Shown piece by piece: positions 9,100-64,000 of a stretch of DNA of 64,000 nt (position 1 is the first letter of the stretch; each line of letters starts with the position of its first letter). The position numbers and the translations under genes are program-made. Under the pieces are notes generated by a model that saw only the letters and a list, made by a program, of their open reading frames with translations, was not told the origin of the DNA and made no database searches. The stretch is from Candidatus Poribacteria bacterium (GTDB lineage: Bacteria; Poribacteria; WGA-4E; WGA-3G): contig OZ244821.1 in the NCBI GenBank assembly GCA_965220325.1, forward strand, positions 1,179,428 through 1,243,427. Direction: 5' to 3'.

Positions 9100-10503
9100 A
9101 TGAAAACACAAACGATGTATGAAAAAATATGGGAGGCGCATCTCGTGCGCGCTTCCGCTGATGAGGTGCCGATTCTTTATATCGACACGCATCTCGTCCA
9201 CGAAGTCACATCCCCGCAAGCGTTTGAGGGGCTGCGACTCAACAACCGAAAGGTACGCCGACCTGATCTGACCTTCGCAACGATGGATCACAACGTGCCG
9301 ACGACAGATAGATCGCTACCGATCACCGACCTGATCGCAGCGAAACAGATGGAGACGCTGGCAGAAAATTGCACTGAGTTTGACATCCCGCTCTACGACA
9401 TTGATAGTCCTGATCAAGGGATCGTCCATGTCATCGGACCGGAACTCGGTATCACACAACCCGGTAAGACCATCGTCTGCGGTGATAGCCATACCTCAAC
9501 GCACGGTGCACTCGGTGCACTCGCCTTCGGGATCGGCACGAGTGAGATTGAACATGTCCTCGCGACGCAGTGCCTCTTGCAACAGAAATCAGAGACATTC
9601 GAGATTCGGATTGATGGCACACTCCCCTACGGCGTGACCGCAAAAGACATTATCCTCTCGATTATCGGGCATATCGGTATCGACGGCGGCAACGGCGCTG
9701 TCGTCGAGTATACCGGTTCTGCGATCCGCGCTCTTAGTATTGAGGAGCGGATGACAGTTTGCAATATGTCGATTGAGGCAGGCGCACGCGCCGGTATGAT
9801 CGCACCCGACGATACGACCTATGAATATATCGCTGGCAAACGTTTCGCACCGAAAGGTGAAGATTTTGAGGCAGCGGTTGAACGTTGGAAGCAGCTACCG
9901 ACTGACGAAGGCGCGACTTATGACCGAACGCTACAACTCGATGCAGCTGACATCGCGCCGCAGGTGACATGGGGGACAAACCCCGGTATGGTCACCGATG
10001 TGACAGGACGTGTCCCGGACCCAGCAGCCATGACGACAACCGACGACAAGCGCGCCGCAGAACACGCTTTAGAATATATGGACCTCCAACCCGGCACCCC
10101 GATAACAGATATTCCTGTCGATAGGGTTTTCATCGGTAGCTGCACGAACTCTCGTATCAGCGATTTACGGGCTGCTGCGGAAGTCGCTAAAGGAAGGAAA
10201 GTCGCAGAGAACGTCAGCGCGATGGTCGTCCCGGGTTCGCAGGCGGTTAAACGTCAAGCGGAGGTGGAAGGGCTTGACAAGGTTTTTCAAGAAGCCGGCT
10301 TTGAATGGCGTGAAGCGGGTTGTAGTATGTGCCTCGGTATGAATCCTGATACCCTGATGCCGGGTCAACGTTGTGCCAGCACATCGAACCGGAATTTTGA
10401 AGGTAGACAGGGCAAAGGTGGACGCACGCATCTCGTCAGTCCACAGATGGCGGCTGCGACGGCGGTTACAGGCCGTTTCGTGGACATCCGAAAGTTTCAA
10501 TAG
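9100..10503 (+). CDS. leuC: 3-isopropylmalate dehydratase large subunit
   Basis: [10 protein letters not shown]...[21 protein letters not shown]...[10 protein letters not shown] closely matches LeuC. Confidence 0.9.
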
Positions 10504-14414: not shown

Positions 14415-14496
14415 AAAGATCGCGAGCGCAGCTCGCTCCTACAGGGGAGGAGTATTTACATAAACAAAGTGAATATGTAAAATTGAATGGTCCTGC
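14415..14496 (+). repeat. REP element copy
   Basis: AAAGATCGCGAGCGCAGCTCGCTCCTACAGGGGAGG...TTTACATAAACAAAGTGAATATGTAAA. Same family as 905-986. Confidence 0.6.
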
Positions 14497-15821: not shown

Positions 15822-18800
15822 TTATTGCAACGATTTTAGTTCACCCCATGTCGTTGTCGCTTTACCAGTAGGGGAGACATGACCACGAAGGTGTGTGACC
15901 TTTAGAACCTGGATATCACCATCAATGGAGACATCTTGGATCTGGTAGTAGTAGACGACATTGGGTTTCGCGGTCTTGTCAACGAACTCGTAAGCCGTAC
16001 GTTCGCTCGTTGTACCTTGACCTGCGATTAACTGCGTATTAAGTTTCGTGAATTGACCGTCTCGGGTGTCACTCCGGAGGATGTTGAATCCTGCGTTGTC
16101 CAACTCAGATTCGGTGATCCAACGGATAGCGACAGAACCGTCGTCAAGACGTGTCGGACGGAACGTTGATAGTTCAACAGGAAGGACACCACCAGCGTTA
16201 TGGCCAGGGCTGCCTTGATCACTCGTGTGCCCGTAAGAGGTCGCATCAAGCGTCCGACCTAACTGTTGACTCATATCGAAGAACTTCCAAGCATTCTTGT
16301 CCATTCCGTCAATCGGTCCCATAGTATCCGATACACGAACCAGAGAGATACGGTTGCTATTAGCGCCTATAGTGTTAGGCAGCATCCAACTGATTGGCAC
16401 GAAGGACTGACCGTTTGAACGACGATCATTTTCCGGTGCTGGACCGAGGTTACCAATCGTATCAACAGCGTGATAGACGCTATCCTTTTCCCACGCTTCA
16501 ACCTTTATCTGGAACCCGTAAGTATTCAGTAGCAACTGACTACCTCTCCTATTGACCGAATGGATACGTTCCTTAGGAAGCATGGTATTGTTGCGAGCCG
16601 AACGGGCAACAATCAGATACGACTGTCTCGGTGGGATAACATGATTCGGGAGCCTGAAGGATATAGTCAGATCACCATCGAATGAACCAACGCCACCATC
16701 GGCACTATCCATGTCGTGGTTCGTGACAGTGATTCTCCAACCCTGGACACTGACAGCCTCCGTACGAGATGTATTGAAGAGCTCAATCCACTCTGGCAGA
16801 TTTCGAGGTCCCTGGTCTATCATTATTTCGCTAACGATCACCGAGCTACGTGTGGTCGCATCGAATCTGTTATGTCTGGCATGTGCGCTATGCGGATGTC
16901 CCGGTGTGCCACCGTTCTGTGCATTCGGCTTGGCTTTCCGTTTATAACCAATACCCGACCAACCGTTATCATCATCACGGAAAGCAACCTTATCGCTGTT
17001 GTTGTTATTCTCTTTCGACTTGGTGCCATCAATATCCGCGTGTTGACGACGTTGAACCGTTCCCACTGTCAATTTGTTGTTCTCACGGTTAGGTGCTGGG
17101 AAGTTACTCAAAGGCCAGAGATTCGTGAACCGGGTGCCATCATCAACTTTCAGATTAGGGTGATAACCCGCGATGTCTCGGATGTTGTTATCGCCGGTAG
17201 AACCGTTCCGATCCTGGCGATTTCGCAGGACTAAGACGAAGTTACTATGGTCGTCCGGCAGTTCGTTGAAGGTGTGCGCAACCATATAACGTGCCGAATT
17301 CTCGTTAACACCAGGCACATAGTTGGCTTCACCGGGTTTCGCAACTGTCCACGTATTTCTGACACCGAAATTCCAACCCGCGGCTAACGGATGGTTCGGA
17401 TCGCCTGTCGGATCCTTCTTAACAACGAGCAGAATACCACCCGCAGGGACGTTCCGATCTGCAGTCGTGAAATCAATCAAGTCATCATCCTTATCTAAAC
17501 CGGTTATCATCGTGACTTCATAGTTCTTGAGGTTAACGTTACCACCAGAGACGTTACGCAGTTCAATCCATTCGTAATCTGGATTGTCGTGGTTAGCGAT
17601 CTCATTGAAGATGATTGGACCACGATTGGCGTTGGTTGTTCCGACGAGTTGAACGCCAGCACGTTCTTTTTGACCCGGTGTGCCTCTATGGTTCGTTGCA
17701 TAGAGCTCCGTCGATTTCGTCCAATGACCGGATTGATGTCCTGGTCCACCTCCATTGCTCCGGTACATAGAGATGAACTCTACCATACCAGTGACCATAC
17801 CACTGCCATCAGTGGCACCACTGTTACCGTTCTGACCTTTACCAAGCACCCAGTCATCACCAGCACCAACGACGTTACTGATACGGTCAGTCTCTTCGGC
17901 AAGTGCCGGACGCCTTGCTTGACTACTAATTTTTATAGCAGAAATCGCGAAGTTTTTATCAGATGTACGGTTGTGGAGTTCAATCCACTGTTCACCGAGG
18001 TACGCAGCTCTGTTATCAATCTGACCTTGGTCAACAGCCCACATAACTTCGCTGAAGACGACTTGCAGACGGGTCGCACCCGTAACTTTCACATTGATCG
18101 TACCGCCAATGTCAAACAACTCTTCCAGGTCCGGCATCTCTTCTTCATCTGATACCTCTGACCAACTCACCACATCAGGTGAGAGATTACCGAAAGATGG
18201 CGGACTGTCTTTATCACGGACGACGACGAGGTATTTACCGGCAGCAAGCATCGCTGCTGCTGGTGGTGTTTTTGCTGTGACTGTTTCCTTCATACCGGTT
18301 GCTTTCATTGCTGAAACACTAACTTCTACACTTGTCGCACCAGCAGTAGGCGTAATTTCTACAGTCCACATCGTGTCCATTGTGGCATCTGCCGTAGCTG
18401 GCATAGGTGTGCCAGCGGTACCGCCCATAACCATAATATCAGCCATTGCTAACTCGACTTTTTCAGAAAAGTTCAAGGTGACGGTAAACTTTTTATCAAC
18501 CGTGGCAGTAGAATCTGCCAAGATCGTTACAGTCGGTGGTGACTCGGCTGTGACTTCTAGCTCAGCACCAGTTGCTTCCTTTTCTGCGACATCAACTACT
18601 ACACTTGCCGCATCAAGAACAGGGCTAATTTCTACAGTCCACATCGTGTCCATTGTGGCATCTGCCGTAGCTGGCATAGGTGTGCCAGCTTCACCGCCCG
18701 TAACGATAATATCAGCCTTTTCTAACATAACTGGCTTATTGAATGTCAAGGTAGCAGTAAACTTTTTATCAACCGTGGCATCGGGAGCAGTGATTGTCAC

Positions 18801-21496: not shown

Positions 21497-21621
21497 AAAT
21501 CGCGAGCGTGAAGAAACACCGTTTTTGCTTGGGCGTTTCTTAAGCAAAAACACTCGCTCCTACCGGGGAATCATATTCACAGATATAAAGTGAATAGGTA
21601 CAATTGAATGGCCCTGATAGT
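21497..21621 (+). repeat. REP copy with 45-bp hairpin-loop insertion
   Basis: CGCGAGCG[TGAAGAAACACCGTTTTTGCTTGGGCGTTTCTTAAGCAAAAACAC]TCGCTCCTAC...TTCACAGATATAAAGTGAATAGGTACA. The insert is itself a hairpin (GTTTTTGCTT/AAGCAAAAAC). Confidence 0.6.
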
Positions 21622-26309: not shown

Positions 26310-26388
26310 AAGATCGCGAGCGCAGCTCGCTCCTACAGGGAAGAAGTATTTACATAGATAAAGTGAATATGTAAACTAAATACCCCTA
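26310..26388 (+). repeat. REP element copy
   Basis: AAAGATCGCGAGCGCAGCTCGCTCCTACAGGGAAGAAGTATTTACATAGATAAAGTGAATATGTAAA, immediately 3' of the LamG-protein gene. Confidence 0.6.
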
Positions 26389-52954: not shown

Positions 52955-54166
52955 CTAAAGTGATTCAAGGAAGGCAATAACGGCTTGTTGTTTCTCTACA
53001 GACAGGTTGAAGAACTTTTCCTTAGCATTCTGTGCCTCGCCACCGTGGGCTCGAATCGCACCTTCAAGTGTTGTTGCGCGACCGTCATGAAGGAAAAACG
53101 GTGTACCCCCGAGAAATTCCGCAACCAAACGTGTGCCCCAAAGTGGAGCAGTCCGCCATTCTGTTCCTGTCGCTTCACCATCAGGACGGTTATCTGCTAA
53201 TTCTTCACCCATATCATGCAAAAGGAAATCGGAGTAAACGTGGACATCTACCCTGTTCAAAGCATCAATAGGAGACGGTCCCGTCTGCATCGTCGGGACG
53301 TGGCAGGAGGCACACCCAATCCGGTTGAAAATCGCATCGCCCCTTTTGACTTCCCCCGTTATCTCACCACGTGGCGGCGGAGAAAGCAACCGCATGAAAA
53401 CGACGATATCCATAACCGTTGATCTTTCAATCTCTGGGTCAGGAACAGTGTCCCCAGTATTGGAAGGTTCCTCTTGTAGAAAACTGCTGGTAACACCCAT
53501 ATCTTGTTGGAATGCCATTGCGGTCTGTTGTACCAACGATGAAACGGATGCCTTGCGTCCAAACCTTCCAAGCTGCTCACCCGGTCCGCCGCCAATCTCC
53601 GTAGTTGGTACAAAATCGGCGGCAGCGACCCAGTGCGGTCTGCCAGAAATACCGTCGCCATCGGCATCGTCTTCATCGGCGTAGGATAATATGGTTTCAA
53701 CCGATATATTTTCGATAAGTCCCATTCCGAAAACGGGGGGCGGGAGTCGTGTGGATTTATCCACACCCACCGGAAGTGTCTCGTAAGACACACCTGGGAT
53801 GACTTTGTCTTGAAGCTGGGGACCTCCCATATCAAGCATCAGATTATGTCCCATACTAAATCGGATGAGCGATAGGTCCGGCATACCACGCCCATTTCCA
53901 GGGTGGCAACTTACACACGCCGCCTGATTAAAAATGGGACCTAAACCTTCTTCTACTGTGAAGACTTTCATGAATGCTTCCTCACCTCGTGTGAATGTGG
54001 CACTCAGGTCAGAAGGCAACATTTCAAAAGGGGTCTCAAAATTACCAAGCGCAGGTTCAACATTATCGGCTTTGGGTATTATTAATTTAGTCCTGCCGTC
54101 ACAACCATTCATAGATACGAGAACAATCAAAACAATAAAAAAAATGCAAGATATTTCCAATTTCAA
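52955..54166 (-). CDS. di-heme c-type cytochrome, DUF1111 family (putative thiol oxidoreductase/peroxidase)
   Basis: Two CxxCH motifs (AACVSCH, GCASCH). C-terminal FLHDGRATTLEGAIRAHGGEA is typical of DUF1111. Confidence 0.6.
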   Translation of the reverse strand: MKLEISCIFFIVLIVLVSMNGCDGRTKLIIPKADNVEPALGNFETPFEMLPSDLSATFTRGEEAFMKVFTVEEGLGPIFNQAACVSCHPGNGRGMPDLSLIRFSMGHNLMLDMGGPQLQDKVIPGVSYETLPVGVDKSTRLPPPVFGMGLIENISVETILSYADEDDADGDGISGRPHWVAAADFVPTTEIGGGPGEQLGRFGRKASVSSLVQQTAMAFQQDMGVTSSFLQEEPSNTGDTVPDPEIERSTVMDIVVFMRLLSPPPRGEITGEVKRGDAIFNRIGCASCHVPTMQTGPSPIDALNRVDVHVYSDFLLHDMGEELADNRPDGEATGTEWRTAPLWGTRLVAEFLGGTPFFLHDGRATTLEGAIRAHGGEAQNAKEKFFNLSVEKQQAVIAFLESL

Positions 54167-54504
54167 CTCCTTGTAGATGCAGTTAGATCAATATATCGTA
54201 GATTTTAGAATGATTTAGACACTCTCAACGCACAAGCAACCGCCTAAACCCTCACCCTATATCTTCCATTACCTAAGGAGTAGCGAATTAACCCCTAAAT
54301 CCGCCACTCCTTATCCCCAACGTCCCATCCCCTATCACGGGTTAGGCGACTTTGGAGGCTTCACGAAGAGACAGAACGACCCGGAAGGAACTGCTTAATG
54401 TAATTCACCATATTTGATACTGAAGATCGCCTACAGAAAACAAGTCTATTGAGAAAGCGACCCTCCGAGTGTCTAATTTCTACAATAAATCTAAAATTTT
54501 GGGG

Positions 54505-55842
54505 TCATTTGTCATTGACATTCAGCGGTATCGGCTCCGTTTGTTTCATCGGTTTTGATAGCAGATGTGCCGGTGGCGATTCGCCCGTCAAAGTCTTGAG
54601 AAATTCGACCAAATCGTTTTGCTCCGCTTCACTGAGATTCAGCGGTGCTATCGGCAACGCAGCCATCCTAGGAAACGCCACAGTAGAACCTCCAGCATTC
54701 TTGAACGCAATCACAGACAAAAGCGTCGGAAACTCTCCCGTATGAAAATACGGTGCCGTCACGGCAACGTTGCGGAGGGGCGGTGTCCGGAACGCACCCT
54801 GGTCTTCAGACTTCGCTGCCATAACACCTAACATCTCTTCGGACCCCGACCGCCAATCGCTATAGATACCCGCACTGTTAAACATATTATTGAGAAGTTT
54901 CGGAATACCTTGGAAACGCCCCTTATCCTCTACAGGCCCCGATGGCACGCCGATATTATGGAAACCGTTGTCCGTAAACCTCGGTGTATTGTGGCAATCA
55001 ACGCATCCACCTTTGCCAATGAATAGCTTTAAGCCCCGCTTGGCTTCCGGGGAAATCGCAGACGCATCGCCTGCGACATACCTGTCAAACGGCGCATCCC
55101 GACTAATCAGAAGCCGTTGGTAGGCTTCAAAGGCTTTACCGATATTCGAGAAGATGGTGTTTATAGCAATCTGGTCTGCTTCGGACATGCCATCAAATGC
55201 CGGATCTCCGGGTTTGCCGTCATCGGGGAAGCGGGCTGTATCTTCGAGTTCAGGGAGCGGAGCAAAAACTGCTTCATATTCCGTTTTATAGTGTTGATGG
55301 ATAACATAGGCATACTGTGCACGGGTTCCCGCCATTTCATCTTCACCTTCAAGCGCAAATAACGCTTGGGCCCACATCGTTTCTGCCCTGCCGTCCCAAA
55401 GCTGCCATTCGTTATACGCAGCATTGAGCACAGTCGGTGTGTTTCTTGTCCCTCGTCCGGTCGCTAATGACGTTGATTCTATATCCGCAAAGGCATAAAA
55501 CGGCGAGTGGCAGGTCGAACATGCTATTGTGCTATGTTTGGAGAATCGAAAATCAAAGAAAAACGCCTGTCCCAACAGTGCCGCAGCTGGGTCATCAGCA
55601 AGACGATTCGTCGGATTTGCCGGCGGGACGGCAGGTAAAGGTGATAACCCCATGATAATGTCCCACTCAGCTTCGCTAAAGAAGTCGGGCGTTTCTGTCG
55701 GATGTTCAAGCGTAGTAAGTGTTTCCCCGACGCGTTCCCTATCACATCCTATGAAAAATAGGACAACATTACATAGAAAAAACATGAAAACCATTGAAAA
55801 TCTGTTGAAATCAGATACCATATATTTATTTCCTCCGCTCAC
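54505..55842 (-). CDS. di-heme cytochrome c peroxidase (CCP/MauG family)
   Basis: CSTCHSP and CVDCHNTPRFTDNGFHNIGVP heme motifs. RTPPLRNVAVTAPYFHTGEFPTL conserved CCP region. Confidence 0.8.
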   Translation of the reverse strand: MSGGNKYMVSDFNRFSMVFMFFLCNVVLFFIGCDRERVGETLTTLEHPTETPDFFSEAEWDIIMGLSPLPAVPPANPTNRLADDPAAALLGQAFFFDFRFSKHSTIACSTCHSPFYAFADIESTSLATGRGTRNTPTVLNAAYNEWQLWDGRAETMWAQALFALEGEDEMAGTRAQYAYVIHQHYKTEYEAVFAPLPELEDTARFPDDGKPGDPAFDGMSEADQIAINTIFSNIGKAFEAYQRLLISRDAPFDRYVAGDASAISPEAKRGLKLFIGKGGCVDCHNTPRFTDNGFHNIGVPSGPVEDKGRFQGIPKLLNNMFNSAGIYSDWRSGSEEMLGVMAAKSEDQGAFRTPPLRNVAVTAPYFHTGEFPTLLSVIAFKNAGGSTVAFPRMAALPIAPLNLSEAEQNDLVEFLKTLTGESPPAHLLSKPMKQTEPIPLNVNDK

Positions 55843-56139
55843 ATAATTTATTATTGAGCACTGTGTATCGTTGCCTTTAAGGTAACTGTAACAGATAACG
55901 GTAACTGTAACAGATAACGTGAATTTGATAAATACTTAGGGCAGCCGCATTTGCGCTTAAAGTCCTCCTGATAAGGGGATTTAGGGGGTGTTTTTGCTGG
56001 GGTGTTTCTTAAATCACTAAAACTGCCCTTCTTTTGCCCAATTTGCGCCTGTTCTGAATTCTAAGTTCGCGTTAACAGGTAAATGGGTTTTATGATGATA
56101 GAAGGTTTCCATCACAGCAAAAACACAATTCAGTTAATA

Positions 56140-56262
56140 TAATGATGTTAGGACAATTTTAAAAATTTATGTATTTTACAATAAATTGTCCCAACATCAG
56201 TAAATTATACTCTGCTTCAATTGATAAGTCAAATTAAATTTTCAGAAAATTACTTAACTTGT
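56140..56262 (-). promoter_or_regulatory. duplicated promoter-operator module: consensus sigma70 promoter (TTGACT-N17-TATAAT, minus strand) immediately followed by a 55-bp palindrome GATGTTGGGACAAT-N-ATTGTCCTAACATC
   Basis: Minus-strand reading TTGACTTATCAATTGAAGCAGAGTATAAT, with -10 at about 56204-56209 and -35 at about 56227-56232. About 90% identical to 60893-61022. Upstream of the CCP gene. Confidence 0.55.
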
Positions 56263-56283
56263 TAGGCTGTGAGCTTGGAAAGC

Positions 56284-59200
56284 CTATTTCCGTATCAACA
56301 GTTTCCGGGTCGCAAAATAATTGCCCGCTTTGAGGGTGTAGAAATACACGCCTGTCGCAACCTTTTCACCGAGCTGATTCCGTCCATCCCAATGCGCCGC
56401 CTTGCTCCGACTTTGGTAGATACCCGCAGGCTGGTGCCCCAATCGCAACTTCCGCACGATCCGCCCCCGCACATCGTAGATCGTTAGCGTAACTTCTGCC
56501 GGTTTGGCGAGCTGATACGGTATCCACGTTTCAGGGTTGAACGGGTTCGGGAAGTTAGTCAAGAGTGCAGTATTATCAGGAATCACAAGAGATGTTTCAA
56601 GGGATGGCGCAGCACCTACGACATCCGTGACATTGATGGTAACGGTAATACTATCAGTCCCACCCTTCCCATCAGAGACAGCGACTTTGACCGTATAAGT
56701 GCTCTTCGTTTCAGCATCAAGTTCAGCGTTAGTTTGGAGTTGACCGGATGATTTAACAATACGAAACGAATCCGCATCCGTGCCACCGAGATGATAAGTG
56801 AGTGTATCCCCGGTATCCTCATCTGTGGCAGCGACCACACTGCCGATGTTTGTACCGGAAGCGGTGTTTTCTGCTACAGAACGGGTTGTGCTATCACCAT
56901 CGCTAAACACAGGGGCGTTATTATTTGCTACTGCAGGAATTGTAATATCTAAGGTTAAACCTGGATGACCTTCAATTACCTCAATTGCTGCCTTGAGTCG
57001 ACGGAGGGGACCATAATCCAAAATCTGATTCCCCGACAGACCAAGTTCTGTGAGTGCGGTCAAGTTTTCAAGCGCAGAAACATCGCTTATGGAATTGTTA
57101 TTCAGAGCGAGTTCTGTGAGTGCGGTCAAGTTTTCAAGGGCGGATATATCACTGATCCAATTGTTAGACAGAATGAGTCGTTTCAGTGAAGTCAAGTTTT
57201 CAAGGGCGGATATATCGCTTATGGGATTCCAATGCAGATTGAGGTCTGTGAGTGCGGTCAAGTTTTTAAGGGCGGATATATCGCTTATGGAATTCCAATC
57301 CATCTTGAGGTTTGTGAGTGCGGTCAAGTTTTTAAGGGCGGATATACTGCTTATGGAATTACGAGACAGATCGATCCAATTCAGTGCGGTCAAGTTTTTA
57401 AGGGCGGATATATCGCTTATGGAATTGTAACTCAGAAAGAGCTGTTTCAGTGAAGTCAAGTTTTTAAGTGTGGATATATCGCTTATGGAATTATTATGCA
57501 GATATAACCATTCCAGTGCGGTCAAGTTTTTAAGGGCGGATATATCGCTTATGGGATTGAAACCCAGAAAGAGCCATTTCAGTGAAGTCAAGTTTTTAAG
57601 GGCGGATATATCGCTTATGGAATTGTGTTTCAGAACGAGGTTTGTCAGTGAAGTAAATCCATCAAAATCACCAACCTTTAGTGCCGTTATTCTTCTGTAG
57701 TCAATGCTAAGGGAAGTTATTGCAGCAAGATGGGCTGCAGTCACATCGGCGGCATTATTAACATTCGGTACCGCAGCAACAATTGCATCTCGCACCTGTC
57801 GTGTGCGTTCATTGACCGGAGTAAATTCGGATACATCCGTCACATTTATGGTAACGGCGATGCTATCACTCCCGCCGCTGCCATCAGAGACAGACACTGA
57901 CACGGAATAAGACGACTTGCTTTCATAATCCAAGGCGGCACTCGTCTGCAGTTGCCCAGAGGTCGAAACAATACGAAACGAACTTGCATCCGTGCCCCCC
58001 AAAGTATACGTGAGTGTATCGCCGCTATCCGTATCTGTCGCAGCAATAGCACTGCCGATGTTTCTGCCGGAGGGAGTGTTCTCTGCGATGGAGCGCGTCG
58101 TCTCGGTGCCATCGTTGAAGACAGGTGCGTTGTTAGGAGCCGCACTCACTTGAATTGAGAACGTCAGCGTGGCTGAAAGTGTTCCATCACTCGCCGTATA
58201 GGTATAGGTCGCTGAAGCTGTCTCAGTTGTAGGTGTTCCAGAAAGCGTGCGCGTTGAAGCCGTAAAGGTCAACCCGGCAGGGAGTGCTGGTGTCACCGTG
58301 TATGTGATCGTATTGCCAGCATCAACATCGGTTGCTTCAGGCAAGGCCACCGACGTGATTGCTGTTCCTGCGGTGGCAGAAATATTACTGATGCTTGCTC
58401 CCGCACTGAACGCTGGTGCCTCGTTGACGTTCGTGACATTAATCGTGACGGCGATGCTATCACTCCCGCCGTTTTTATCAGAAACAGATACTGACACAGA
58501 ATAAGACGACTTGCTTTCGTAGTTTAGGGCAGCACTAGTTCGGAGTTGCCCGGATGTGCCGACAATACTGAACAAGGAGGCATCTGCGCCACCTAAAGTA
58601 TAGGTGAGTGTGTCGCTGGTATCCGCATCTGTCGCAGCAACGGGACTTCCGATGTTTGTACCTGAACGGGTGTTCTCAGCAACAGACCGAGTAGTGCTGG
58701 TGCCATCGTTGAATGCGGGGGCGCGGTTCTCATTCACATCTGTAATATTGATGGTGACGAGGACGCTATTGACAAGACCCCCGCTATCCGTCGCGCGGAC
58801 AGCCAGATTGTTGTAAGTGCGCTTCGTTTCATAGTCAAGAGCCGCGCGGGTTTGCAGCTGCCCTGTCCTTGCGTCAATACGAAATACGTTTTTATCGCCC
58901 CGCTGAAGCGAATAGGTCAGTGTATCGCCACTATCGGGGTCTGTGGCCTGGAAGGGCCTGCCGATGTTTCTGCCGGAAGCCGTGTTCTCTGGGACGGAGA
59001 GTGTGACCCTTCCAAAAGTGCTGAAACTCGGTTTCTCATTGACATCTGTAACACTGATCGTGACGGCGATGCTATCTGTGCCGCCATTGCCGTCGGAGAC
59101 AGAAACCGTGACAGCGTAGGAGTTGTCTGCTTCATGGTTCAGGGCAACATTGGTTTGCAGCTGCCCGGAGGTGGAAACAATGCGAAACGAGGACGCATCC

Positions 59201-60672
59201 GTGCCACCAAGCGTATACGTTAGTGTGTCGCCGGTATCCACATCTGTCGCAGCAATAGCACTCCCTATGTTTGTACCTAAAGCGGTGTTCTCAGCAACAG
59301 ACCGCGTCGTGCTAGTGCCTTCACTGAATGCGGGAGCACGATTCTCATTGACATCTGCAACGTTGACGGTGACGGCGATACTATCACTCCCACCATTACC
59401 ATCAGAAACAGACACCGTCACGGAATAAGATGATTTCGTTTCATAATCTAACGCAGCACTCGTCTGCAGCTGTCCTGATGTAGAAACAATGCTAAATGAA
59501 GACGCATCCGTACCACCAAGCGTATACGTTAGTGTGTCGCCGGTATCCGCATCTGTCGCAGCAATAGCACTCCCGATGTTTGTGCCAGATGCCGCGTTCT
59601 CCGCAACAGACCGCGTCGTGCTGGTGCCGCTTGTGAACACGGGTGCGCGGTTCTCACTGACATCCGTGACCTTGATGGTGACGAGGACGCTATTGACAAG
59701 ACCCCCGCTATCCGTCGCGCGGACGGCCAGATTGTTGTAAGTGCGCTTCGTTTCATAGTCAAGTGCCGCGTGGGTTCGCAGCTGCCCTGTATTTGCGTCA
59801 ATACGAAACGCTTTCTTATCGCCCCGCTGCAGCGAATAGGTCAGTGTATCCCCGCTATCGGGGTCTGTTGCTTGGAAGGGAGCACCGATATTTGTGCCGG
59901 AAGCCGTGTCCTCTTCGACGGAGAGTGTGACCCTACCCGAAATGTTGAAACTCGGTTTCTCATTGACATCTGTAACATTGATCGTGACGGCGATGCTATC
60001 TGTGGCGCCATTACTATCGGAGACAGAAATCGATACCGAGTAGGACGACTTGCTTTCATAGTTTAGGGCAGCACTGGTTCGGAGTTGGCCCGATGTGCTG
60101 ACAATACTGAACGATGCCGCATCCGTGCCACCCAAAGTATAGGTGAGTGTGTCGCCGGTATCCGCATCTGTTGCAGCAATAGGATTCCCGATGTTTCTGC
60201 CAGAAGCCGTGTTCTCAGCAACAGATCGCGTGGCACTGTCGCCATCGGTGAAGGTCGGAGCGTTGTTTCCAGCCGTTTCATCAACATCCGTGACATTGAT
60301 TGTGACGCTAATGACACGTCTACCCCCATTGCCATCGTCGACAAAAATGGCAAACGAGTAGACGCTCTTCGTTTCATAGTCCAAGGGTGCTTTGGTGCGG
60401 ATTTGACCGGTATTGCTGTCGAGAGTAAATGCTGTTCCATCCAGCCACCCCTTAGTATAGGTGAGTGTATCGTTATCTGCATCCGTTGCAGCGACCGGTG
60501 CGCCGATGTTTACCCCGGCCGGTGTGTTCTCTGCAATAGAGCGTATTGTGCGGTTACCGTCTATGAATACAGGTGCACTGTTCTCATCGGCATAACCTAA
60601 TATATGTGTGCAAAAAATTATAAAAGCGGTTAGGAAAATTGATACGATATACTTTTTGTTTTTAAATAGCAA
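56284..60672 (-). CDS. giant secreted adhesin: about 12 cadherin-like repeats, a central leucine-rich-repeat block, and a T9SS-type C-terminal sorting domain
   Basis: Signal peptide. Repeated APVF.DG..TTRSVAEN...NIG..IAATD.D.GDTLTY.LGG.D...F.I....GQL.T..ALDYE modules. LRRs (LTSLK.LFL..N.ISDISALKNLTAL...). The C-terminus NFPNPFNPETWIPYQLAKPAEVTLTIYDVRGRIVRKL...WDGRNQLGEKVATGVYFYTLKAGNYFATRKLLIRK matches the Por/T9SS CTD. Confidence 0.8.
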   Translation of the reverse strand: MLFKNKKYIVSIFLTAFIIFCTHILGYADENSAPVFIDGNRTIRSIAENTPAGVNIGAPVAATDADNDTLTYTKGWLDGTAFTLDSNTGQIRTKAPLDYETKSVYSFAIFVDDGNGGRRVISVTINVTDVDETAGNNAPTFTDGDSATRSVAENTASGRNIGNPIAATDADTGDTLTYTLGGTDAASFSIVSTSGQLRTSAALNYESKSSYSVSISVSDSNGATDSIAVTINVTDVNEKPSFNISGRVTLSVEEDTASGTNIGAPFQATDPDSGDTLTYSLQRGDKKAFRIDANTGQLRTHAALDYETKRTYNNLAVRATDSGGLVNSVLVTIKVTDVSENRAPVFTSGTSTTRSVAENAASGTNIGSAIAATDADTGDTLTYTLGGTDASSFSIVSTSGQLQTSAALDYETKSSYSVTVSVSDGNGGSDSIAVTVNVADVNENRAPAFSEGTSTTRSVAENTALGTNIGSAIAATDVDTGDTLTYTLGGTDASSFRIVSTSGQLQTNVALNHEADNSYAVTVSVSDGNGGTDSIAVTISVTDVNEKPSFSTFGRVTLSVPENTASGRNIGRPFQATDPDSGDTLTYSLQRGDKNVFRIDARTGQLQTRAALDYETKRTYNNLAVRATDSGGLVNSVLVTINITDVNENRAPAFNDGTSTTRSVAENTRSGTNIGSPVAATDADTSDTLTYTLGGADASLFSIVGTSGQLRTSAALNYESKSSYSVSVSVSDKNGGSDSIAVTINVTNVNEAPAFSAGASISNISATAGTAITSVALPEATDVDAGNTITYTVTPALPAGLTFTASTRTLSGTPTTETASATYTYTASDGTLSATLTFSIQVSAAPNNAPVFNDGTETTRSIAENTPSGRNIGSAIAATDTDSGDTLTYTLGGTDASSFRIVSTSGQLQTSAALDYESKSSYSVSVSVSDGSGGSDSIAVTINVTDVSEFTPVNERTRQVRDAIVAAVPNVNNAADVTAAHLAAITSLSIDYRRITALKVGDFDGFTSLTNLVLKHNSISDISALKNLTSLKWLFLGFNPISDISALKNLTALEWLYLHNNSISDISTLKNLTSLKQLFLSYNSISDISALKNLTALNWIDLSRNSISSISALKNLTALTNLKMDWNSISDISALKNLTALTDLNLHWNPISDISALENLTSLKRLILSNNWISDISALENLTALTELALNNNSISDVSALENLTALTELGLSGNQILDYGPLRRLKAAIEVIEGHPGLTLDITIPAVANNNAPVFSDGDSTTRSVAENTASGTNIGSVVAATDEDTGDTLTYHLGGTDADSFRIVKSSGQLQTNAELDAETKSTYTVKVAVSDGKGGTDSITVTINVTDVVGAAPSLETSLVIPDNTALLTNFPNPFNPETWIPYQLAKPAEVTLTIYDVRGRIVRKLRLGHQPAGIYQSRSKAAHWDGRNQLGEKVATGVYFYTLKAGNYFATRKLLIRK

Positions 60673-60892
60673 TATCTAAGCTCCTTTATCGGTATTCAAT
60701 GAAGGTTAGCAATCCCAGTCCTTATCTGCTTTCAAGAGCGGTTAAATTGACATTCAGCGGTATCCGATCCGGTTGTTTTGATTGAAATCAGATACTATAG
60801 ATATACTTATATCCTTTTTTAGATAAAAATGAATATAGTACTTTATGATGCGATAAATAGAGGATATCTATCACAGGAAAAGGACACAACTT

Positions 60893-61022
60893 AGTTAACG
60901 TAAATGATGTTGGGACAGTTTCAAAAATTTATGTATTTTACAACAAATTGACCCAACATCAGTAAATTATACTTTGCTTCAATTGATAAGTCAAATTAAA
61001 TTTTTAGAAAACTACCTAATTC
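60893..61022 (-). promoter_or_regulatory. second copy of the promoter-operator module, upstream of the giant adhesin gene
   Basis: Minus-strand TTGACTTATCAATTGAAGCAAAGTATAAT, then GATGTTGGGTCAAT...ACTGTCCCAACATC. The predicted TSS is about 285 nt upstream of the start codon. Confidence 0.55.
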
Positions 61023-61179
61023 GCCTAAGAAACGTCTAGTAAATTCAGAACGTCATATCAGACTTCACAACAAAAAATTTCTACCAAAATAGGTATACGT
61101 CTCTATCTTTTCTCAGGACAATTTAGTTTTCGGTTTCGATCTTGGTTTTGGTTGACAGATGTTAACGTTTAGATGCCAG

Positions 61180-61326
61180 GTCGCGAGCGTGAAGAAATCC
61201 GCAGAAATACCCAGGCAATACGCAGAAATACCCAAGCAAATACACCCCAAGCAAATACACTCGCTCCTACCGGGGAAGCGTATTCACATAGATAAAGTGA
61301 ATATGTAAAACTAAACACCCCTGCTA
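61180..61326 (+). repeat. REP copy with a 70-bp loop insertion made of CAGAAATACCCARGCAAATAC repeats
   Basis: GTCGCGAGCG[insert]CACTCGCTCCTACCGGGGAAGCGTATTCACATAGATAAAGTGAATATGTAAAACTAAACACCCCTG. Confidence 0.6.
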
Positions 61327-61446
61327 TCTTTTCTCTGAAAACCTTGAATTAGAGAGAGATTTTTGATATAATAATAAATTAACAGTAGTCGTGTTCGTTC
61401 GTATAAGAATAGATTCTACAATCCAGTTTAGGAGGCTCCGAATAGC

Positions 61447-64000
61447 AATGAATTCTCTGAAAGACCTTATTCAACGCTGTCATGAACGGCATGAAAAGCC
61501 TCTTCGACAACGCAAGACAGTGTCAACACCTGCGATGTATATAAAGGATCGCCCACGCCAGTACGCGGTTTACTGTGCACACCGCTTCCCTGTCATGCTT
61601 CATGATTTAGAACAAGCGGATATCTCTCTCATGCCTATGGGACGCGCACCTTGGCATGATCGGGGGCCCGGGGATTTTAGGGGCAAGCGGTTCTTGAAAC
61701 GCCAAGGCATAACGGATTGGAGCGCTAAACGATGGGATGCTTCGTGGGGTATTCAATTGTATACTGGTATCCCTTCGGAACGTAATGGTGCGAGATGGCA
61801 CGATCTACACTTCAAGTATGAGGCGATCTGTGCTGCACCAGAGGCAGTTGTCGCTTGTATTGAGGCACTTGTTAATATTGTTAATAACCCGCTTTTAACA
61901 TTAGGGAAGTCCGGCGGCATCCGCTTCTCCTGTAGAGTCCAAGATTATCTCCATCCCAATACCGAAGCAGCGAAATTATATATCTATAAAGACACCCTGA
62001 TACCGGAAAATGTGTATCAACGCGATGTATATCTCGAAATATTTGGTCAAGAAGGGCACACACGCTGGGATGCCCGCTATGAGATACTCATCGGGAATCT
62101 GTTAACGCCACCGGTCATCGCCAAAGAAGTCCTTTTCGCGCCTATTGACGCCCTCCGTGTGAAACTCCATGAACCTGCGCCTGATAGCACAGAAGCGAAG
62201 CAGATTGTCACCCCTGTACCGCTATCGCTCGGTTCAGAGAGCCTTGATCTCGCAAGAGAGGCGTTCTTGCAACGTGGATTCTCTTATGTCAGACAAGAGG
62301 ACGGCCTTTACTACTGGACGCTCCCTGAAGGCACTATTGGCAGCGAAGATGTCCTACTCTCGGAAAGCGATGGGGTGGTGTGGGTCAGCGCAGCTACGCC
62401 TGACATGGGGCTGCCAACGCAATCCACGCCAATCACAGAGGTTTGGGATGATACAGGTATTCTGTCCCCACTATCTGCAACAAGTACCTCTACACCTGTG
62501 AAAGTGAAACAGGTACGAAAAGATGAACTCAGCCCGTTGGCGATAAAACGTCCACCACCGGTATTAGGACAACACGGTAACACCGAAGAGGATGAAATAC
62601 TCCAAAGGGATGTGTTTCGGATAGAAAGCATCTTTGACGGAGGCGTACGTATTCTTGGGGTTATTACAGGGATAGGTCCTTGGGATAAAGAGTCAGAAGA
62701 CTCATATTTCCTTAGTGGCGGTGTAATTTCCGTAAATACGCCGGAAATCAAATTCGCTGAAAGCACTGAAAAATACTTTCGAGAGCAGAATATACCATCG
62801 GTGGCTTACTGGAAGCCTCGAACACACCGATGGGAACACGTGAAAGACATACCCACTAATGTCCGGATGAAAACACCTTTTCAACATGGAAATGTCTGTG
62901 AAGACTCAGAACGATGTTCAGCACTTGAGGAAAAAGGTGGAAATCCGAATGAAAGTATCTGTCCACAGTGCTCCGTCTATTCAGAGTGTCAGCAGCGTGG
63001 ATACTTATCCCAATTTGCCGCATTTCGACAGGCAAAAGTCCAAATGTTGACGATTCCGCAACTGTTTTTTGATCCCCAATATACTGAATTGGTGGAACAG
63101 ATCCTCGAAAGAGACGATGAAACCGAACGACTTTGTGTGCTCAACCAACAGCGCACACATAAACTATTCCTCGAATGTAAACTCTCAAAAAACATTATGG
63201 AGGAATGGGCTGCGAACTGGCAGAACTGTGCCTTAGGAAACTTCGCAAAAACATTGCTGAGTGCTTTGGAAATTGAAGGCAAATCTTACGACGATGCCGT
63301 CAAAGGCGTACGCGCAGTGATGCAGACTTTTGAATGGCAAGAGGACACACTTATCCAGCAGATGTGTCAAGTTAGAGTGCGGGGTAGGACGGTGGCGAGC
63401 GAGATCGTTGACACTGATACCGGAAAGACGTTGGCACGCTTTAGCATCAAATTTGAAGGTGGTGCCTCCGCTTACATCCCCTTAAACAAAAACGCAGCGG
63501 ATAAACTCAACGCAAAAGGACTTCCTGTCTTTCTGCAATCCGTTCCGCTTAATGAAGACATAAAAGTTGTAATGTCGATGGCGCAAGCGATTTCATTAGG
63601 GATATTGGATACAAAATCAGTTGAAAGCATTCAAGCGTTTCCAACCGTCTGTCGCGAGCAAAGTTGGACATTTTGGCATCAACTTAAGCGTTTCTTTGCA
63701 CATTACACGCGAGACTCAGACGCACCTATTCGATGGGATGGTGAAGTCCTGCAGTTTTGGGTGCCCCCTGTGCTCCATACAAGCGTCAAACGCCTTTTGT
63801 TGGTATCGTCAGTATTCTCAGAGCAACATCTCCACAGAGTGTTTCCCAATGAAAACCTTGAGACCTACTGGACCGAACCCATACCGTGGAGTCAGGGAAA
63901 CCGCGTCTTTCAGGTTCGCACAGGGGTCTATCCATCAGAAGCCATTCTCGACTACTACAACTGGAGTAATGTAAGTGTCTCTGAAACAGGTCAACGTTTT
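61447..64000 (+). CDS. large uncharacterised protein (>850 aa, 3' end outside the window) with a Cys-cluster zinc-ribbon-like motif
   Basis: ATG 61447, preceded by AGGAGG. Open to the window end. Contains C-x6-C...C-x2-C-x5-C (CEDSERCSALEEKGGNPNESICPQCSVYSEC). The N-terminal 170 aa has a weak primase-polymerase-like pattern (GIQLYTGIPSE...HDLHFKYE...LGKSGGIRFSCRV) lacking catalytic DxD/H. No Walker motifs. Confidence 0.5.

What the first reader, a model, noticed from the sequence alone, without database searches (positions are those of the whole stretch)
61447..64000. Large (>850 aa) orphan protein with Cys-cluster and primase-polymerase-like N-terminal pattern, downstream of a REP copy
- **ORF.** A strong RBS and ATG at 61447 open an uninterrupted ORF that runs past the window end. 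It has no recognisable catalytic motifs and no Walker A.
- **Motifs.** The protein contains a C-x6-C...C-x2-C-x5-C cluster typical of zinc ribbons. Its N-terminal segment loosely resembles an archaeo-eukaryotic primase fold (GIQLYTGIPSE ... HDLHFKYE ... SGGIRF). The acidic DxD and the sGxxH histidine are both substituted. That makes it at best an inactive or divergent AEP-like domain.
- **Context.** Large, lineage-restricted, multi-domain proteins of this kind next to mobile DNA are frequent components of novel defence or conflict systems.
Basis: inference. Interest (0 to 1): 0.55.

Follow-up and report, generated by a model that had tools for sequence, protein, structure and literature searches.

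The report
Catalytically dead primase-helicase, domesticated in Poribacteria
The "orphan" ORF is the first 851 residues of a ~1,130-residue Candidatus Poribacteria protein descended from a mobile-element replication enzyme (primase-polymerase + iron-sulfur-type helicase + DNA-binding tail). It has lost the catalytic residues of both enzymes yet is conserved, duplicated into many chromosomal paralogues and under purifying selection, so it most likely acts as a non-enzymatic DNA-binding protein.

Summary
The ORF is real. The ATG is at 61448 (not 61447), preceded by AGGAGG, and 851 codons run to the window end. Orthologues show a full length of about 1,130 aa.

It is not an orphan: more than 1,300 homologues exist, and 332 genomic loci were confirmed. 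The 80 best loci are all Candidatus Poribacteria, with several paralogues per chromosome.

Fold searches settle the domains:
- The "zinc-ribbon" cysteines (C484, C505-x2-C508-x5-C514) sit where XPD/DinG carry their 4Fe-4S domain.
- HTH/wHTH domains follow beyond the window.

Distant relatives in phage- or plasmid-like contexts keep the catalytic motifs: AEP motif I D-x-E, a primase zinc finger, Walker A and B, and motif VI. The Poribacteria clade, including this gene, has lost them (HFK; ITGIGPWDKE; NQQ; AELDRL). It keeps the cysteines invariant, shows Ka/Ks of about 0.15-0.2, and each paralogue group has its own conserved synteny.

Verdict: a domesticated, catalytically dead replicase derivative, most likely a non-enzymatic DNA binder. 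The defence-system reading has no support.

Side finding: one paralogue group carries a conserved in-frame TGA at an invariant Trp codon.

The parts
61448..64000 (+). ORF (5' 851 codons; truncated by the window end) of a ~1,130-aa PrimPol / XPD-DinG-like helicase / wHTH protein. About 279 codons lie beyond the window, including helicase domain 2, the motif VI remnant and the two HTH/wHTH domains.
   Evidence: full length from the 96%-identical orthologue P0001/L001
61430..61435 (+). Shine-Dalgarno AGGAGG, 12 nt before the ATG. In orthologues an extra in-frame ATG lies 6 nt upstream (MAMNSL...); in the window it is ATA.
61344..61372 (+). Promoter-like site TTGAAT-17-TATAAT (TG-extended), inside the proximal block (~61330-61447) that is conserved among orthologous loci
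61448..62182 (+). PrimPol-clade AEP domain (residues 1-~245)
61808..61816 (+). AEP motif I position: H121-F-K123, where active relatives have an invariant D-F-E. Both metal-ligand acids are replaced.
61910..61927 (+). AEP motif II strand SGGIRF. Arg159 takes the place of the canonical His; this is the case across the whole subfamily.
   Evidence: weak hhalign pairing with the BT4734-type motif II strand
62030..62044 (+). Candidate AEP motif III YLEIF. Glu197 is retained (Glu in 106 of 115 close homologues, invariant in active relatives).
62243..62416 (+). Small alpha/beta domain at the position of the primase zinc finger of active relatives (YPCxVTKH...AFCHNC). All Cys/His ligands are absent here.
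62525..62551 (+). Conserved linker motif ELSPLAIKR, shared with active relatives, immediately before the helicase core
62663..62698 (+). Degenerate Walker A (P-loop) remnant ITGIGPWDKESE. Active relatives have TGxGK[NTDS]; P0157 has GGPGEGKT.
62888..63013 (+). Cys cluster C484, (C490), C505-x2-C508-x5-C514, then GYLSQ. It lies between the Walker A and Walker B remnants, the position of the XPD/DinG 4Fe-4S domain. Four Cys are invariant across the whole superfamily.
63131..63151 (+). Degenerate Walker B: LCVLNQQ, where active relatives have hhhDE / hhhDD
63794..63823 (+). Motif III remnant LLLVSSVFSE (active relatives: MSATL)
61259..61330 (+). REP-like interspersed repeat copy. It lies inside a window-specific insert (~61108-61329) that also holds short tandem repeats (61196-61260). 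It is not part of the gene.

Best explanation
What it is (shown): the gene encodes a three-module protein that descends from the replication initiator of a phage- or plasmid-like element.

- Module 1 is a PrimPol-type AEP domain plus a former primase zinc-finger domain.
- Module 2 is an XPD/DinG-like SF2 helicase core with a four-cysteine cluster, probably 4Fe-4S, inserted in RecA domain 1.
- Module 3, beyond the window end, is a tandem HTH/winged-helix DNA-binding tail.

Loss of catalysis (shown by alignment): in a monophyletic clade found so far only in Candidatus Poribacteria, the catalytic machinery of both enzymes is lost. In this gene AEP motif I D-x-E is H-x-K, the zinc-finger ligands are gone, Walker A is unrecognisable, Walker B DE is NQ, motif III SAT is SSV, and motif VI QxxGRxR is QAELDRL in the orthologue. 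The Cys cluster, the fold-determining residues and the wHTH tail stay conserved.

Evolutionary status (shown): the clade has expanded to at least nine paralogue groups. Each sits in its own conserved chromosomal neighbourhood and is under purifying selection.

How it most likely works (inferred): it is a non-catalytic nucleic-acid-binding protein. The wHTH tail would give sequence-specific dsDNA recognition. The dead helicase and PrimPol folds would keep ssDNA or fork binding without NTP hydrolysis or primer synthesis. It would therefore act as a DNA-bound regulator or scaffold, or as an origin-occupying inhibitor of related mobile elements. Which of these biological roles applies is not determined.
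For: Domains:
- AbiEi_4 and HTH_23 match at the C-terminus.

Mobile-element ancestry:
- Relatives sharing the helicase core carry BT4734-like_N + PriCT_2, or a PrimPol_Db-like N-terminus.
- Relatives sharing the same N-domain sit in phage-like (RuvC, exonuclease, Dam, DUF5131) and plasmid/ICE-like (integrases, ParA, RHH) contexts.
- A viral UL9-like origin-binding helicase is among the best BFVD hits.

Loss of catalysis:
- The invariant residues of 44 active relatives are exactly the Walker A Lys, four Cys, the Walker B Asp, and the motif VI Gln and Arg.
- In 115 close homologues none has the motif I Glu and none has a Walker A in the tabulated variants, while five Cys are invariant or nearly so.

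Functional constraint:
- Ka/Ks is 0.15-0.21.
- The close alignment has more than 150 invariant columns.

Chromosomal and expanded:
- 332 loci were confirmed; the 80 best are all Poribacteria, with up to four or more per chromosome among those 80.
- Synteny is specific to each group.
- The dead clade is monophyletic and sister to the active clade.
- It is absent from IMG/VR viral contigs.
Against: - No biochemical data exist, so loss of activity is inferred from motifs only.
- A His at motif I could in principle still bind metal.
- A subclade of the family (L059, L070, L079, P0125) keeps Walker A, and P0125 also keeps Walker B (Walker B was not checked in the three loci), so ATP binding may persist in some paralogues.
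- The full-length AF2 model is only moderate (pLDDT 64.7), and the Cys-cluster segment itself is below 50, so cluster geometry was not checked.
- hhalign of the N-domain against the BT4734-type AEP profile was not significant.
- The biological role (regulator or anti-element decoy) has no direct evidence.
- DNA binding by the tail is inferred from marginal Pfam scores (25.9 bits against a cut-off of 25).
Confidence: 0.6

Rival explanations
1. One reading: a component of a novel anti-phage defence or conflict system, for example a single-gene sensor/effector or decoy that targets invading elements.
For: - It derives from a mobile-element replicase.
- It is a lineage-specific expansion into many divergent paralogues.
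- Its wHTH is of the AbiEi type.
- Active relatives coexist in Poribacteria (P0271), so origin-binding interference is conceivable. This overlaps with one branch of the best explanation.
Against: - PADLOC gives nothing for the helicase core. The only hit for the window protein is Cas7_IIIg at E 0.003 over the Cys cluster, which is likely noise.
- No neighbour gene is conserved across paralogue groups.
- No AbiEii-type partner was seen in the three loci that carry Pfam-annotated gene calls.
- Each paralogue group sits in stable, conserved synteny among ordinary metabolic genes rather than in variable defence islands.
- Ka/Ks of 0.15-0.2 shows no sign of arms-race evolution.
- No effector domain (nuclease, NADase, pore and so on) was detected.
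Confidence: 0.15
2. It is still an active enzyme (helicase/translocase and/or primase) that uses non-canonical catalytic residues.
For: - The fold is conserved and under strong purifying selection.
- The motif I first Asp (D119), the motif III Glu and a His at the second motif I position could still bind a metal.
- Some paralogues keep Walker A (and P0125 also Walker B).
Against: - The positions that are invariant in 44 active relatives (Walker A Lys, Walker B Asp, motif VI Gln/Arg, motif I Asp/Glu) are not merely changed. They vary freely between paralogue groups: TGIGPWDK / TETDTGDH / AETGTQNN; NQQ / GRI / TEA / NNL; H/N/D/I/Y at motif I. That is the signature of relaxed constraint at those sites.
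- The primase zinc-finger ligands are all gone.
Confidence: 0.08
3. A decaying remnant of an integrated mobile element (pseudogene or selfish relic) with no host function.
For: - Its ancestry lies in mobile-element replicases.
- A REP-like repeat and small tandem repeats lie just upstream.
- The catalytic motifs are lost.
Against: - Intact reading frames of about 1,130 codons are seen in more than 100 homologues.
- Ka/Ks is 0.15-0.21.
- Orthologues sit in conserved synteny across genera.
- No integrase, transposase or other element genes are adjacent in the window or in L001-L003.
Confidence: 0.03
4. Sub-claim rival: the cysteine cluster binds zinc (a structural zinc ribbon) rather than a 4Fe-4S cluster.
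For: - Four or five Cys in CxxC-like spacing can bind Zn.
- Some XPD/DinG relatives have vestigial or metal-free FeS domains (the abstract of PMC10450177 describes a vestigial FeS domain in CasDinG).
- The AF2 confidence in this segment is low.
Against: - Its position between Walker A and Walker B in an XPD/DinG-like fold is that of the FeS domain.
- From my own knowledge, the spacing C-x(n)-C-x2-C-x5-C is the one used by 4Fe-4S sites in AddB, Dna2, Cas4 and WhiB-type proteins. A weak WhiB hit (E 0.53) lies over this segment.
Confidence: 0.3

Closest known systems
pRN1 ORF904-type replication proteins (PrimPol + helicase + winged-helix) of archaeal and bacterial plasmids
   Same: - Motif I is of the D-x-E type in the active relatives.
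- The overall logic is the same: primase-polymerase, then helicase, then a winged-helix DNA-binding domain in one polypeptide encoded by mobile elements.
   Different: - The helicase here is SF2 XPD/DinG-like with a Cys cluster, not an SF3 P-loop helicase.
- Motif II His is Arg.
- In the window protein all catalytic residues are lost, and the gene is a chromosomal, multi-paralogue host gene.
XPD/Rad3/DinG/CasDinG family of SF2 5'-3' helicases with a 4Fe-4S domain
   Same: - There are two RecA-like domains.
- A Cys cluster is inserted between Walker A and Walker B.
- There is a large insertion after Walker B, at an arch-like position.
   Different: - There is no significant sequence similarity.
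- The Cys spacing differs.
- The protein is fused to a PrimPol and wHTH domains.
- ATPase motifs I, II, III and VI are degenerate in the Poribacteria clade.
AEP-SF2-helicase fusions and UL9-like origin-binding helicases of viruses and plasmids (all3500 family and pVOG9714, as described in PMC5862659)
   Same: - AEP fused to a divergent SF2 helicase with a C-terminal DNA-binding region, encoded by mobile elements.
- A viral 'replication origin binding protein' is among the top BFVD fold hits.
   Different: - Membership in those specific groups was not tested.
- No match was found in GenBank phage or PLSDB plasmid records.
- The family studied here is known only from metagenomes and MAGs.
BT4734-like (VirE_N) primase + PriCT-2 proteins
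   Same: Some distant relatives of the helicase core carry exactly this primase module in place of our N-domain (P0183, P0211).
   Different: The window protein's N-domain is a different AEP subfamily. hhalign against the BT4734-type profile was not significant, and no PriCT-2 domain was detected.
AbiEi antitoxin (PF13338 wHTH)
   Same: The C-terminal winged helix of the orthologue scores just above the Pfam cut-off (25.9 against 25 bits).
   Different: Only the ~25-residue wing/recognition part matches. There is no AbiEii toxin neighbour, and the protein is five times longer. It is not an AbiE system.

Membership tests
Archaeo-eukaryotic primase (AEP) superfamily, PrimPol clade | AEP catalytic fold | tested here: met
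   [not shown]
Archaeo-eukaryotic primase (AEP) superfamily, PrimPol clade | Motif I hhhDhD/E (metal ligands), as defined in PMC5862659 | tested here: not met
   The window has H121-F-K123 where active relatives have an invariant D-F-E. In 115 close homologues the Glu is never present.
Archaeo-eukaryotic primase (AEP) superfamily, PrimPol clade | Motif II sxH (nucleotide-binding His) | tested here: not met
   The sequence is SGGIRF. Arg replaces His in the whole subfamily, including active-looking members.
Archaeo-eukaryotic primase (AEP) superfamily, PrimPol clade | Motif III hD/E | tested here: inconclusive
   The Glu197 of YLEIF is conserved and is the best candidate. No residue-level structural superposition was available.
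Archaeo-eukaryotic primase (AEP) superfamily, PrimPol clade | Primase or polymerase activity | not testable with these tools
   This needs biochemistry. The prediction is that activity is absent.
XPD/DinG-like SF2 helicases | Two RecA-like domains with XPD-like topology | tested here: met
   [not shown]
XPD/DinG-like SF2 helicases | Four-Cys cluster between Walker A and Walker B | tested here: met
   C484, C505, C508 and C514 lie between residues 406-417 and 562-568. They are invariant in 115 close homologues and in 44 distant relatives.
XPD/DinG-like SF2 helicases | The cluster actually binds 4Fe-4S | not testable with these tools
   This needs spectroscopy and metal analysis.
XPD/DinG-like SF2 helicases | Walker A GxxxxGK[ST] | tested here: not met
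   The window has ITGIGPWDKESE. The segment varies among paralogue groups, whereas active relatives have TGxGK[NTDS].
XPD/DinG-like SF2 helicases | Walker B DE(A/x)H | tested here: not met
   The window has VLNQQR, whereas active relatives have DE or DD.
XPD/DinG-like SF2 helicases | Motif VI QxxGRxxR | tested here: not met
   This lies outside the window. The 96%-identical orthologue P0001 has VQAELDRL, whereas active relatives have QAxGRARL.
XPD/DinG-like SF2 helicases | Significant sequence similarity to the family | tested here: not met
   Profile searches against PDB give XPD at E 0.39 and only generic SF2 hits at E 0.003-0.03. Pfam gives only weak ResIII/DEAD hits in one relative.
AbiE toxin-antitoxin system (AbiEi antitoxin) | AbiEi_4 wHTH domain | tested here: met
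   PF13338 matches P0001 residues 1101-1126 at 25.9 bits against a cut-off of 25. It is below the cut-off in P0065. The region lies outside the window.
AbiE toxin-antitoxin system (AbiEi antitoxin) | Adjacent AbiEii nucleotidyltransferase toxin | tested here: not met
   None is present among the Pfam-annotated neighbours of L001, L002 or L003, and no gene family recurs next to the gene across paralogue groups.
Known anti-phage defence systems (PADLOC-DB v2) | A match to any defence protein model, plus partner genes | tested here: not met
   The only hit is Cas7_IIIg at E 0.0033 over the Cys cluster. The helicase cores of active relatives give nothing. No partner is conserved.
REP/MITE-like interspersed repeats (upstream element) | Multiple dispersed copies of a short, hairpin-containing intergenic element | tested here: met
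   Five same-strand copies of ~65 nt are in the window, with 42 invariant columns. The element is not part of the gene, and no such copy lies in the upstream region of the orthologous locus L001 (one search finds L001 matches to the insert only near 7629-7777 and 17447-17501).

The most novel reading that the evidence does not exclude
Poribacteria have domesticated a mobile-element replicase (PrimPol + FeS helicase + origin-binding wHTH) into a large family of catalytically dead paralogues that retain the Cys cluster. These would work as sequence-specific, possibly redox-sensitive DNA-bound factors. One option is origin-occupying inhibitors of related phages and plasmids, a new 'dead replicase decoy' mode of immunity. 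Another is a new class of giant transcription or chromosome regulators. In addition, one paralogue group may be expressed through programmed UGA read-through, or UGA-to-Trp recoding, at an invariant Trp codon.
Probability: 0.25. Interest if true: 0.75.

Novelty: new variant of a known kind. Interest (0 to 1): 0.55.

Why it matters
Primase-helicase fusions are standard replication proteins of mobile elements. Here there is a whole clade of them: at least nine paralogue groups, more than 1,300 sequences, and several copies per chromosome in a candidate phylum of sponge-associated and marine bacteria. This clade has been kept for a long time after losing every catalytic motif of both enzymes, while preserving the cysteine cluster and the DNA-binding tail.

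That makes it a clean natural example of pseudo-enzyme exaptation of a replicase. It is also a candidate for a new kind of DNA-bound regulator or anti-element factor in an uncultured lineage.

In practice, the result replaces 'hypothetical protein' with a domain-level annotation for thousands of metagenomic proteins. It defines an uncharacterised, active PrimPol + FeS-type SF2 helicase + wHTH replicase family that is absent from sequenced phage and plasmid collections. It also flags a possible stop-codon recoding event that proteomics could test.

Tried and rejected
- Direct Pfam, NCBIfam, PHROGs, PADLOC and PDB sequence searches of the window protein and orthologues gave nothing beyond the C-terminal HTH/wHTH and one weak PADLOC hit.
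- The first AF2 run, with 46 close homologues, left the N-terminal 260 residues unfolded (pLDDT below 50). This was solved only after adding divergent N-domain relatives.
- hhalign of our N-domain profile against a BT4734-type AEP profile was not significant (Prob 0.2).
- The profile of 44 active relatives against PDB sequences gave only weak generic SF2 hits.
- tblastn of active relatives against GenBank phages and PLSDB plasmids found no match.
- IMG/VR scans with the family alignment and with P0142 found nothing.
- The afdb50 fold library was unavailable.
- Rfam and tRNA scans of the region found nothing significant.
- I considered that the long conserved upstream non-coding block (60847-61107) was a leader or riboregulator of this gene and rejected it. 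It contains a near-consensus promoter on the opposite strand plus a hairpin, and it has a second copy downstream of the neighbouring cadherin/LRR gene.
- I considered that the gene is a recently mobile multi-copy element and rejected it. Paralogues are 54-60% identical, and each group sits in its own conserved synteny.
Full report
**1. Observation**

The sequence shows AGGAGG at 61430-61435 and an ATG at 61448-61450. The finding's coordinate 61447 is one base early, and translating from it gives a frame full of stops. From 61448 there are 851 sense codons up to the window end.

The first spacing is C-x5-C rather than C-x6-C: C484, C490, then C505-x2-C508-x5-C514. No canonical Walker A is present.

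A ~65-nt repeat just upstream (~61259-61330) has four further same-strand copies in the window. So "downstream of a REP copy" holds as a description.

**2. Not an orphan**

A search of 5.8 billion proteins gave more than 1,332 homologues. The full length is 1,125-1,135 aa, and the best hit (P0001) is 96% identical. A profile search of 1.84 billion cluster representatives gave 595 clusters at E <= 1e-3.

A scan of one genome per GTDB species confirmed 332 loci. The 80 best are all Candidatus Poribacteria MAGs or complete chromosomes, with up to four or more loci on one chromosome.

The orthologous locus L001 shows that the gene continues about 279 codons beyond the window. In L001 it is followed by ECF-sigma / M61-peptidase genes.

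**3. Domain anatomy**

Sequence-profile libraries see only a C-terminal HTH and an AbiEi_4-type winged helix, both outside the window. Structure prediction resolved the rest.

The "zinc ribbon" lies between the remnants of Walker A (residues 406-417) and Walker B (562-568) of an XPD/DinG-like core. That is the place where this helicase family carries its 4Fe-4S domain. The comparison of positions with XPD is from established knowledge of that family.

**4. Relatives that still look active, and where they live**

Distant relatives share the 350-1050 core.

- Some have BT4734-like_N + PriCT_2, or a PrimPol_Db-like primase module, in place of our N-domain.
- Others share our N-domain.

Alignment of 44 such proteins leaves as invariant columns exactly these residues:

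- the Walker A lysine;
- four cysteines (C-x20-C-x2-C-x5-C);
- the Walker B aspartate;
- the motif VI Gln and Arg.

Those with our N-domain have an invariant D-F-E at motif I (the D-x-E type, as in PrimPols). They also have SGGxR[FY] at motif II, a conserved LE(I/V) as candidate motif III, and a Cys/His zinc-finger motif (YPCxVTKH...AFCHNC) after the PrimPol domain.

Their gene neighbourhoods are typical of mobile elements:

- a phage-like replication module with RuvC, an exonuclease, Dam and DUF5131;
- an integrase/ParA/RHH/methyltransferase element;
- regions of small unannotated genes with transposases, an AAA_25 ATPase, ParA and a DnaE-like polymerase.

A viral UL9-like origin-binding helicase is among the few significant BFVD fold hits. 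AEP-SF2 helicase fusions on mobile elements have been noted before (PMC5862659). This particular family has no match in GenBank phages or PLSDB plasmids.

**5. The window protein is the catalytically dead version**

| Site | Active relatives | Window protein / close clade |
|---|---|---|
| AEP motif I | D-F-E | H121-F-K123; in 115 close homologues the Glu is never present, and the Asp is H, N or another residue in about three quarters |
| Primase zinc finger | Cys/His ligands present | all ligands absent |
| Walker A | TGxGK[NTDS] | ITGIGPWDKESE, different in every paralogue group |
| Walker B | DE or DD | NQ |
| Motif III | SAT | SSV |
| Motif VI | QAxGRARL | QAELDRL (in the orthologue) |

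By contrast, the cysteines are retained in the 115 close homologues: four invariant, the fifth present in 114 of 115. The close alignment has more than 150 invariant columns. Ka/Ks against orthologues is 0.15-0.21.

A neighbour-joining tree of the helicase core puts all the degenerate proteins in one clade, sister to the active ones. A subclade still keeps Walker A, so decay was stepwise. The Arg at motif II is a feature of the whole subfamily and is not itself a sign of inactivation.

**6. Genomic status**

The 83 loci fall into at least nine paralogue groups. Different groups co-occur on the same chromosome, and each group has its own conserved neighbours:

- The window's group has MR_MLE, GFO/IDH and Rieske/cytochrome b upstream, and ECF-sigma/M61 downstream.
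- Another group always has a convergent SNF2 helicase and a VWA gene.

No neighbour is shared across groups in a way that suggests an operon partner. There is no AbiEii-type gene among the Pfam-annotated neighbours, no integrase or transposase next to the gene, no PADLOC support, and no copy in IMG/VR viral contigs.

The REP-like copy and short tandem repeats upstream lie in a window-specific insert, which is absent at that place in the orthologous locus. The gene is thus a stable host gene, not part of a mobile or defence island.

**7. Mechanism**

*Shown:* the fold identities, the loss of catalytic motifs, the retention of the Cys cluster and the wHTH, purifying selection, and chromosomal expansion from a mobile-element ancestor.

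*Inferred:* the protein binds nucleic acid without catalysis. The wHTH would recognise specific dsDNA, and the dead helicase and PrimPol folds would bind ssDNA or fork structures. The protein would act as a regulator or scaffold, or as an inhibitor that occupies the origins of related elements. I put about 0.6 on the overall statement. The domain and evolutionary part is about 0.85, and the non-catalytic DNA-binder part about 0.55.

*Rivals:* a defence component (0.15, partly overlapping with the decoy idea), a still-active non-canonical enzyme (0.08), and a decaying relic (0.03). Whether the cysteines hold Fe-S or Zn is open (about 0.7 to 0.3).

**8. Comparison and novelty**

It works like, and descends from, PrimPol-helicase-wHTH replication initiators (pRN1 ORF904-type logic), but with an XPD/DinG-like SF2 core. 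It fails the catalytic-motif criteria of both enzyme families, so it should be filed as an AEP-fold and XPD/DinG-fold pseudo-enzyme and not as a primase or helicase.

I found no description of this Poribacteria family in the searchable literature. I rate it a new variant of a known kind, with interest 0.55.

**9. Side observations**

- One paralogue group carries a single in-frame TGA exactly at the invariant Trp codon (W455 of the window protein). This was verified in 10 loci from different MAGs and complete chromosomes, and an 11th (L049) is implied by the same 671-aa ORF piece.
  - Ka/Ks is 0.06-0.19 on both sides of it in all but one very close pair, at Ks up to about 1.6.
  - There are 22-24 ordinary TGG codons per gene.
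  - There is no universally conserved restart codon.
  - Synonymous variation is locally reduced.
  - A small hairpin lies 12 nt downstream.
  - This is a candidate programmed read-through or recoding site.
- The distal conserved upstream block is a 109-nt element, consisting of a hairpin with compensatory changes plus a near-consensus promoter on the minus strand. A second copy lies on the other side of the neighbouring cadherin/LRR gene.

Noticed in passing
Related loci L023, L025, L026, L028, L029, L038, L039, L054, L057, L075 (about position 7350-7370 in the loci with a 6-kb flank), and probably L049. The homologous codon in the window is TGG at 62810-62812.: One paralogue group has a single in-frame TGA exactly at the invariant Trp codon, in the context CGC TGA AAA CC, within an otherwise open ~1,125-codon frame. 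Ka/Ks is 0.06-0.19 both upstream and downstream of it in all but one very close pair, at Ks up to ~1.6. TGG is used 22-24 times elsewhere in each gene, and one of the genes ends in TGA. No restart codon is conserved in all loci. Synonymous variation is locally reduced, and a hairpin UACCUG-UGGGAG-CAGGUR lies 12 nt downstream. This is a candidate programmed UGA read-through as Trp, or else a split gene.
   Followed up: partly
window 60903-61011 and 56141-56249: Two direct copies (93.6% identical) of a 109-nt element flank the 1,462-aa cadherin/LRR/T9SS gene (56284-60672, minus strand). Each copy has a 10-bp-stem hairpin or palindrome plus a near-consensus minus-strand promoter (TTGACT-17-TATAAT, 60994 to 60966). 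The element is conserved upstream of the orthologues of the target gene, with GC<->AU compensatory changes at two stem pairs in 9 of 15 sequences. Rfam gives only sub-threshold miRNA-like hits on the second copy.
   Followed up: partly
window ~942-985, 14432-14482, 21542-21596, 26326-26387, 61259-61330: A REP/MITE-like ~65-nt interspersed repeat (GCTCGCTCCTACMGGGGA...TTTACATAGATAAAGTGAATATGTAAAACTAAAT) with two short hairpins. All five copies are on the same strand.
   Followed up: partly
window 61196-61260: Short tandem duplications (2 x 21 nt and 2 x 15 nt, 'AATMCGCAGAAATACCCARGC' and 'CCCAAGCAAATACAC') lie inside the window-specific insert upstream of the gene.
   Followed up: no
window 52955-60672, compared with L001 8964-10001: The window carries about 7.7 kb between the MR_MLE gene and the target gene that the 96%-identical orthologous locus L001 lacks. 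It holds two di-haem cytochrome c peroxidase-like genes and the 1,462-aa cadherin/LRR T9SS-sorted protein. A more distant locus (L002) does have a CCP_MauG gene directly upstream, so L001 probably has a deletion.
   Followed up: partly
window 61442-61450, compared with L001 ~10001-10009: Orthologues start two codons earlier (ATG GCG ATG = MAM...). In the window the first ATG is ATA, so translation must start at 61448, 12 nt from the SD instead of 6.
   Followed up: no
Loci of paralogue group G2 (e.g. L002 13429-16200): All 17 loci of a second paralogue group have a convergent SNF2-family helicase immediately downstream, and 16 of them also a VWA-domain gene. This may be plain synteny or a functional link.
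   Followed up: no
Proteins P0284-P0296 (e.g. P0290, 244 aa, seen on 11 contigs): The PrimPol-like N-domain also occurs as short proteins of 170-390 aa, with or without the zinc finger. Some are probably fragments and others may be genuine stand-alone genes.
   Followed up: no
Loci L059, L070, L079 and protein P0125: A subclade of the Poribacteria family still has a Walker A GxGK motif but a degenerate motif VI; P0125 also keeps Walker B (IVDEA), which was not checked in the three loci. Loss of ATPase motifs was therefore stepwise, and some paralogues may still bind ATP.
   Followed up: partly
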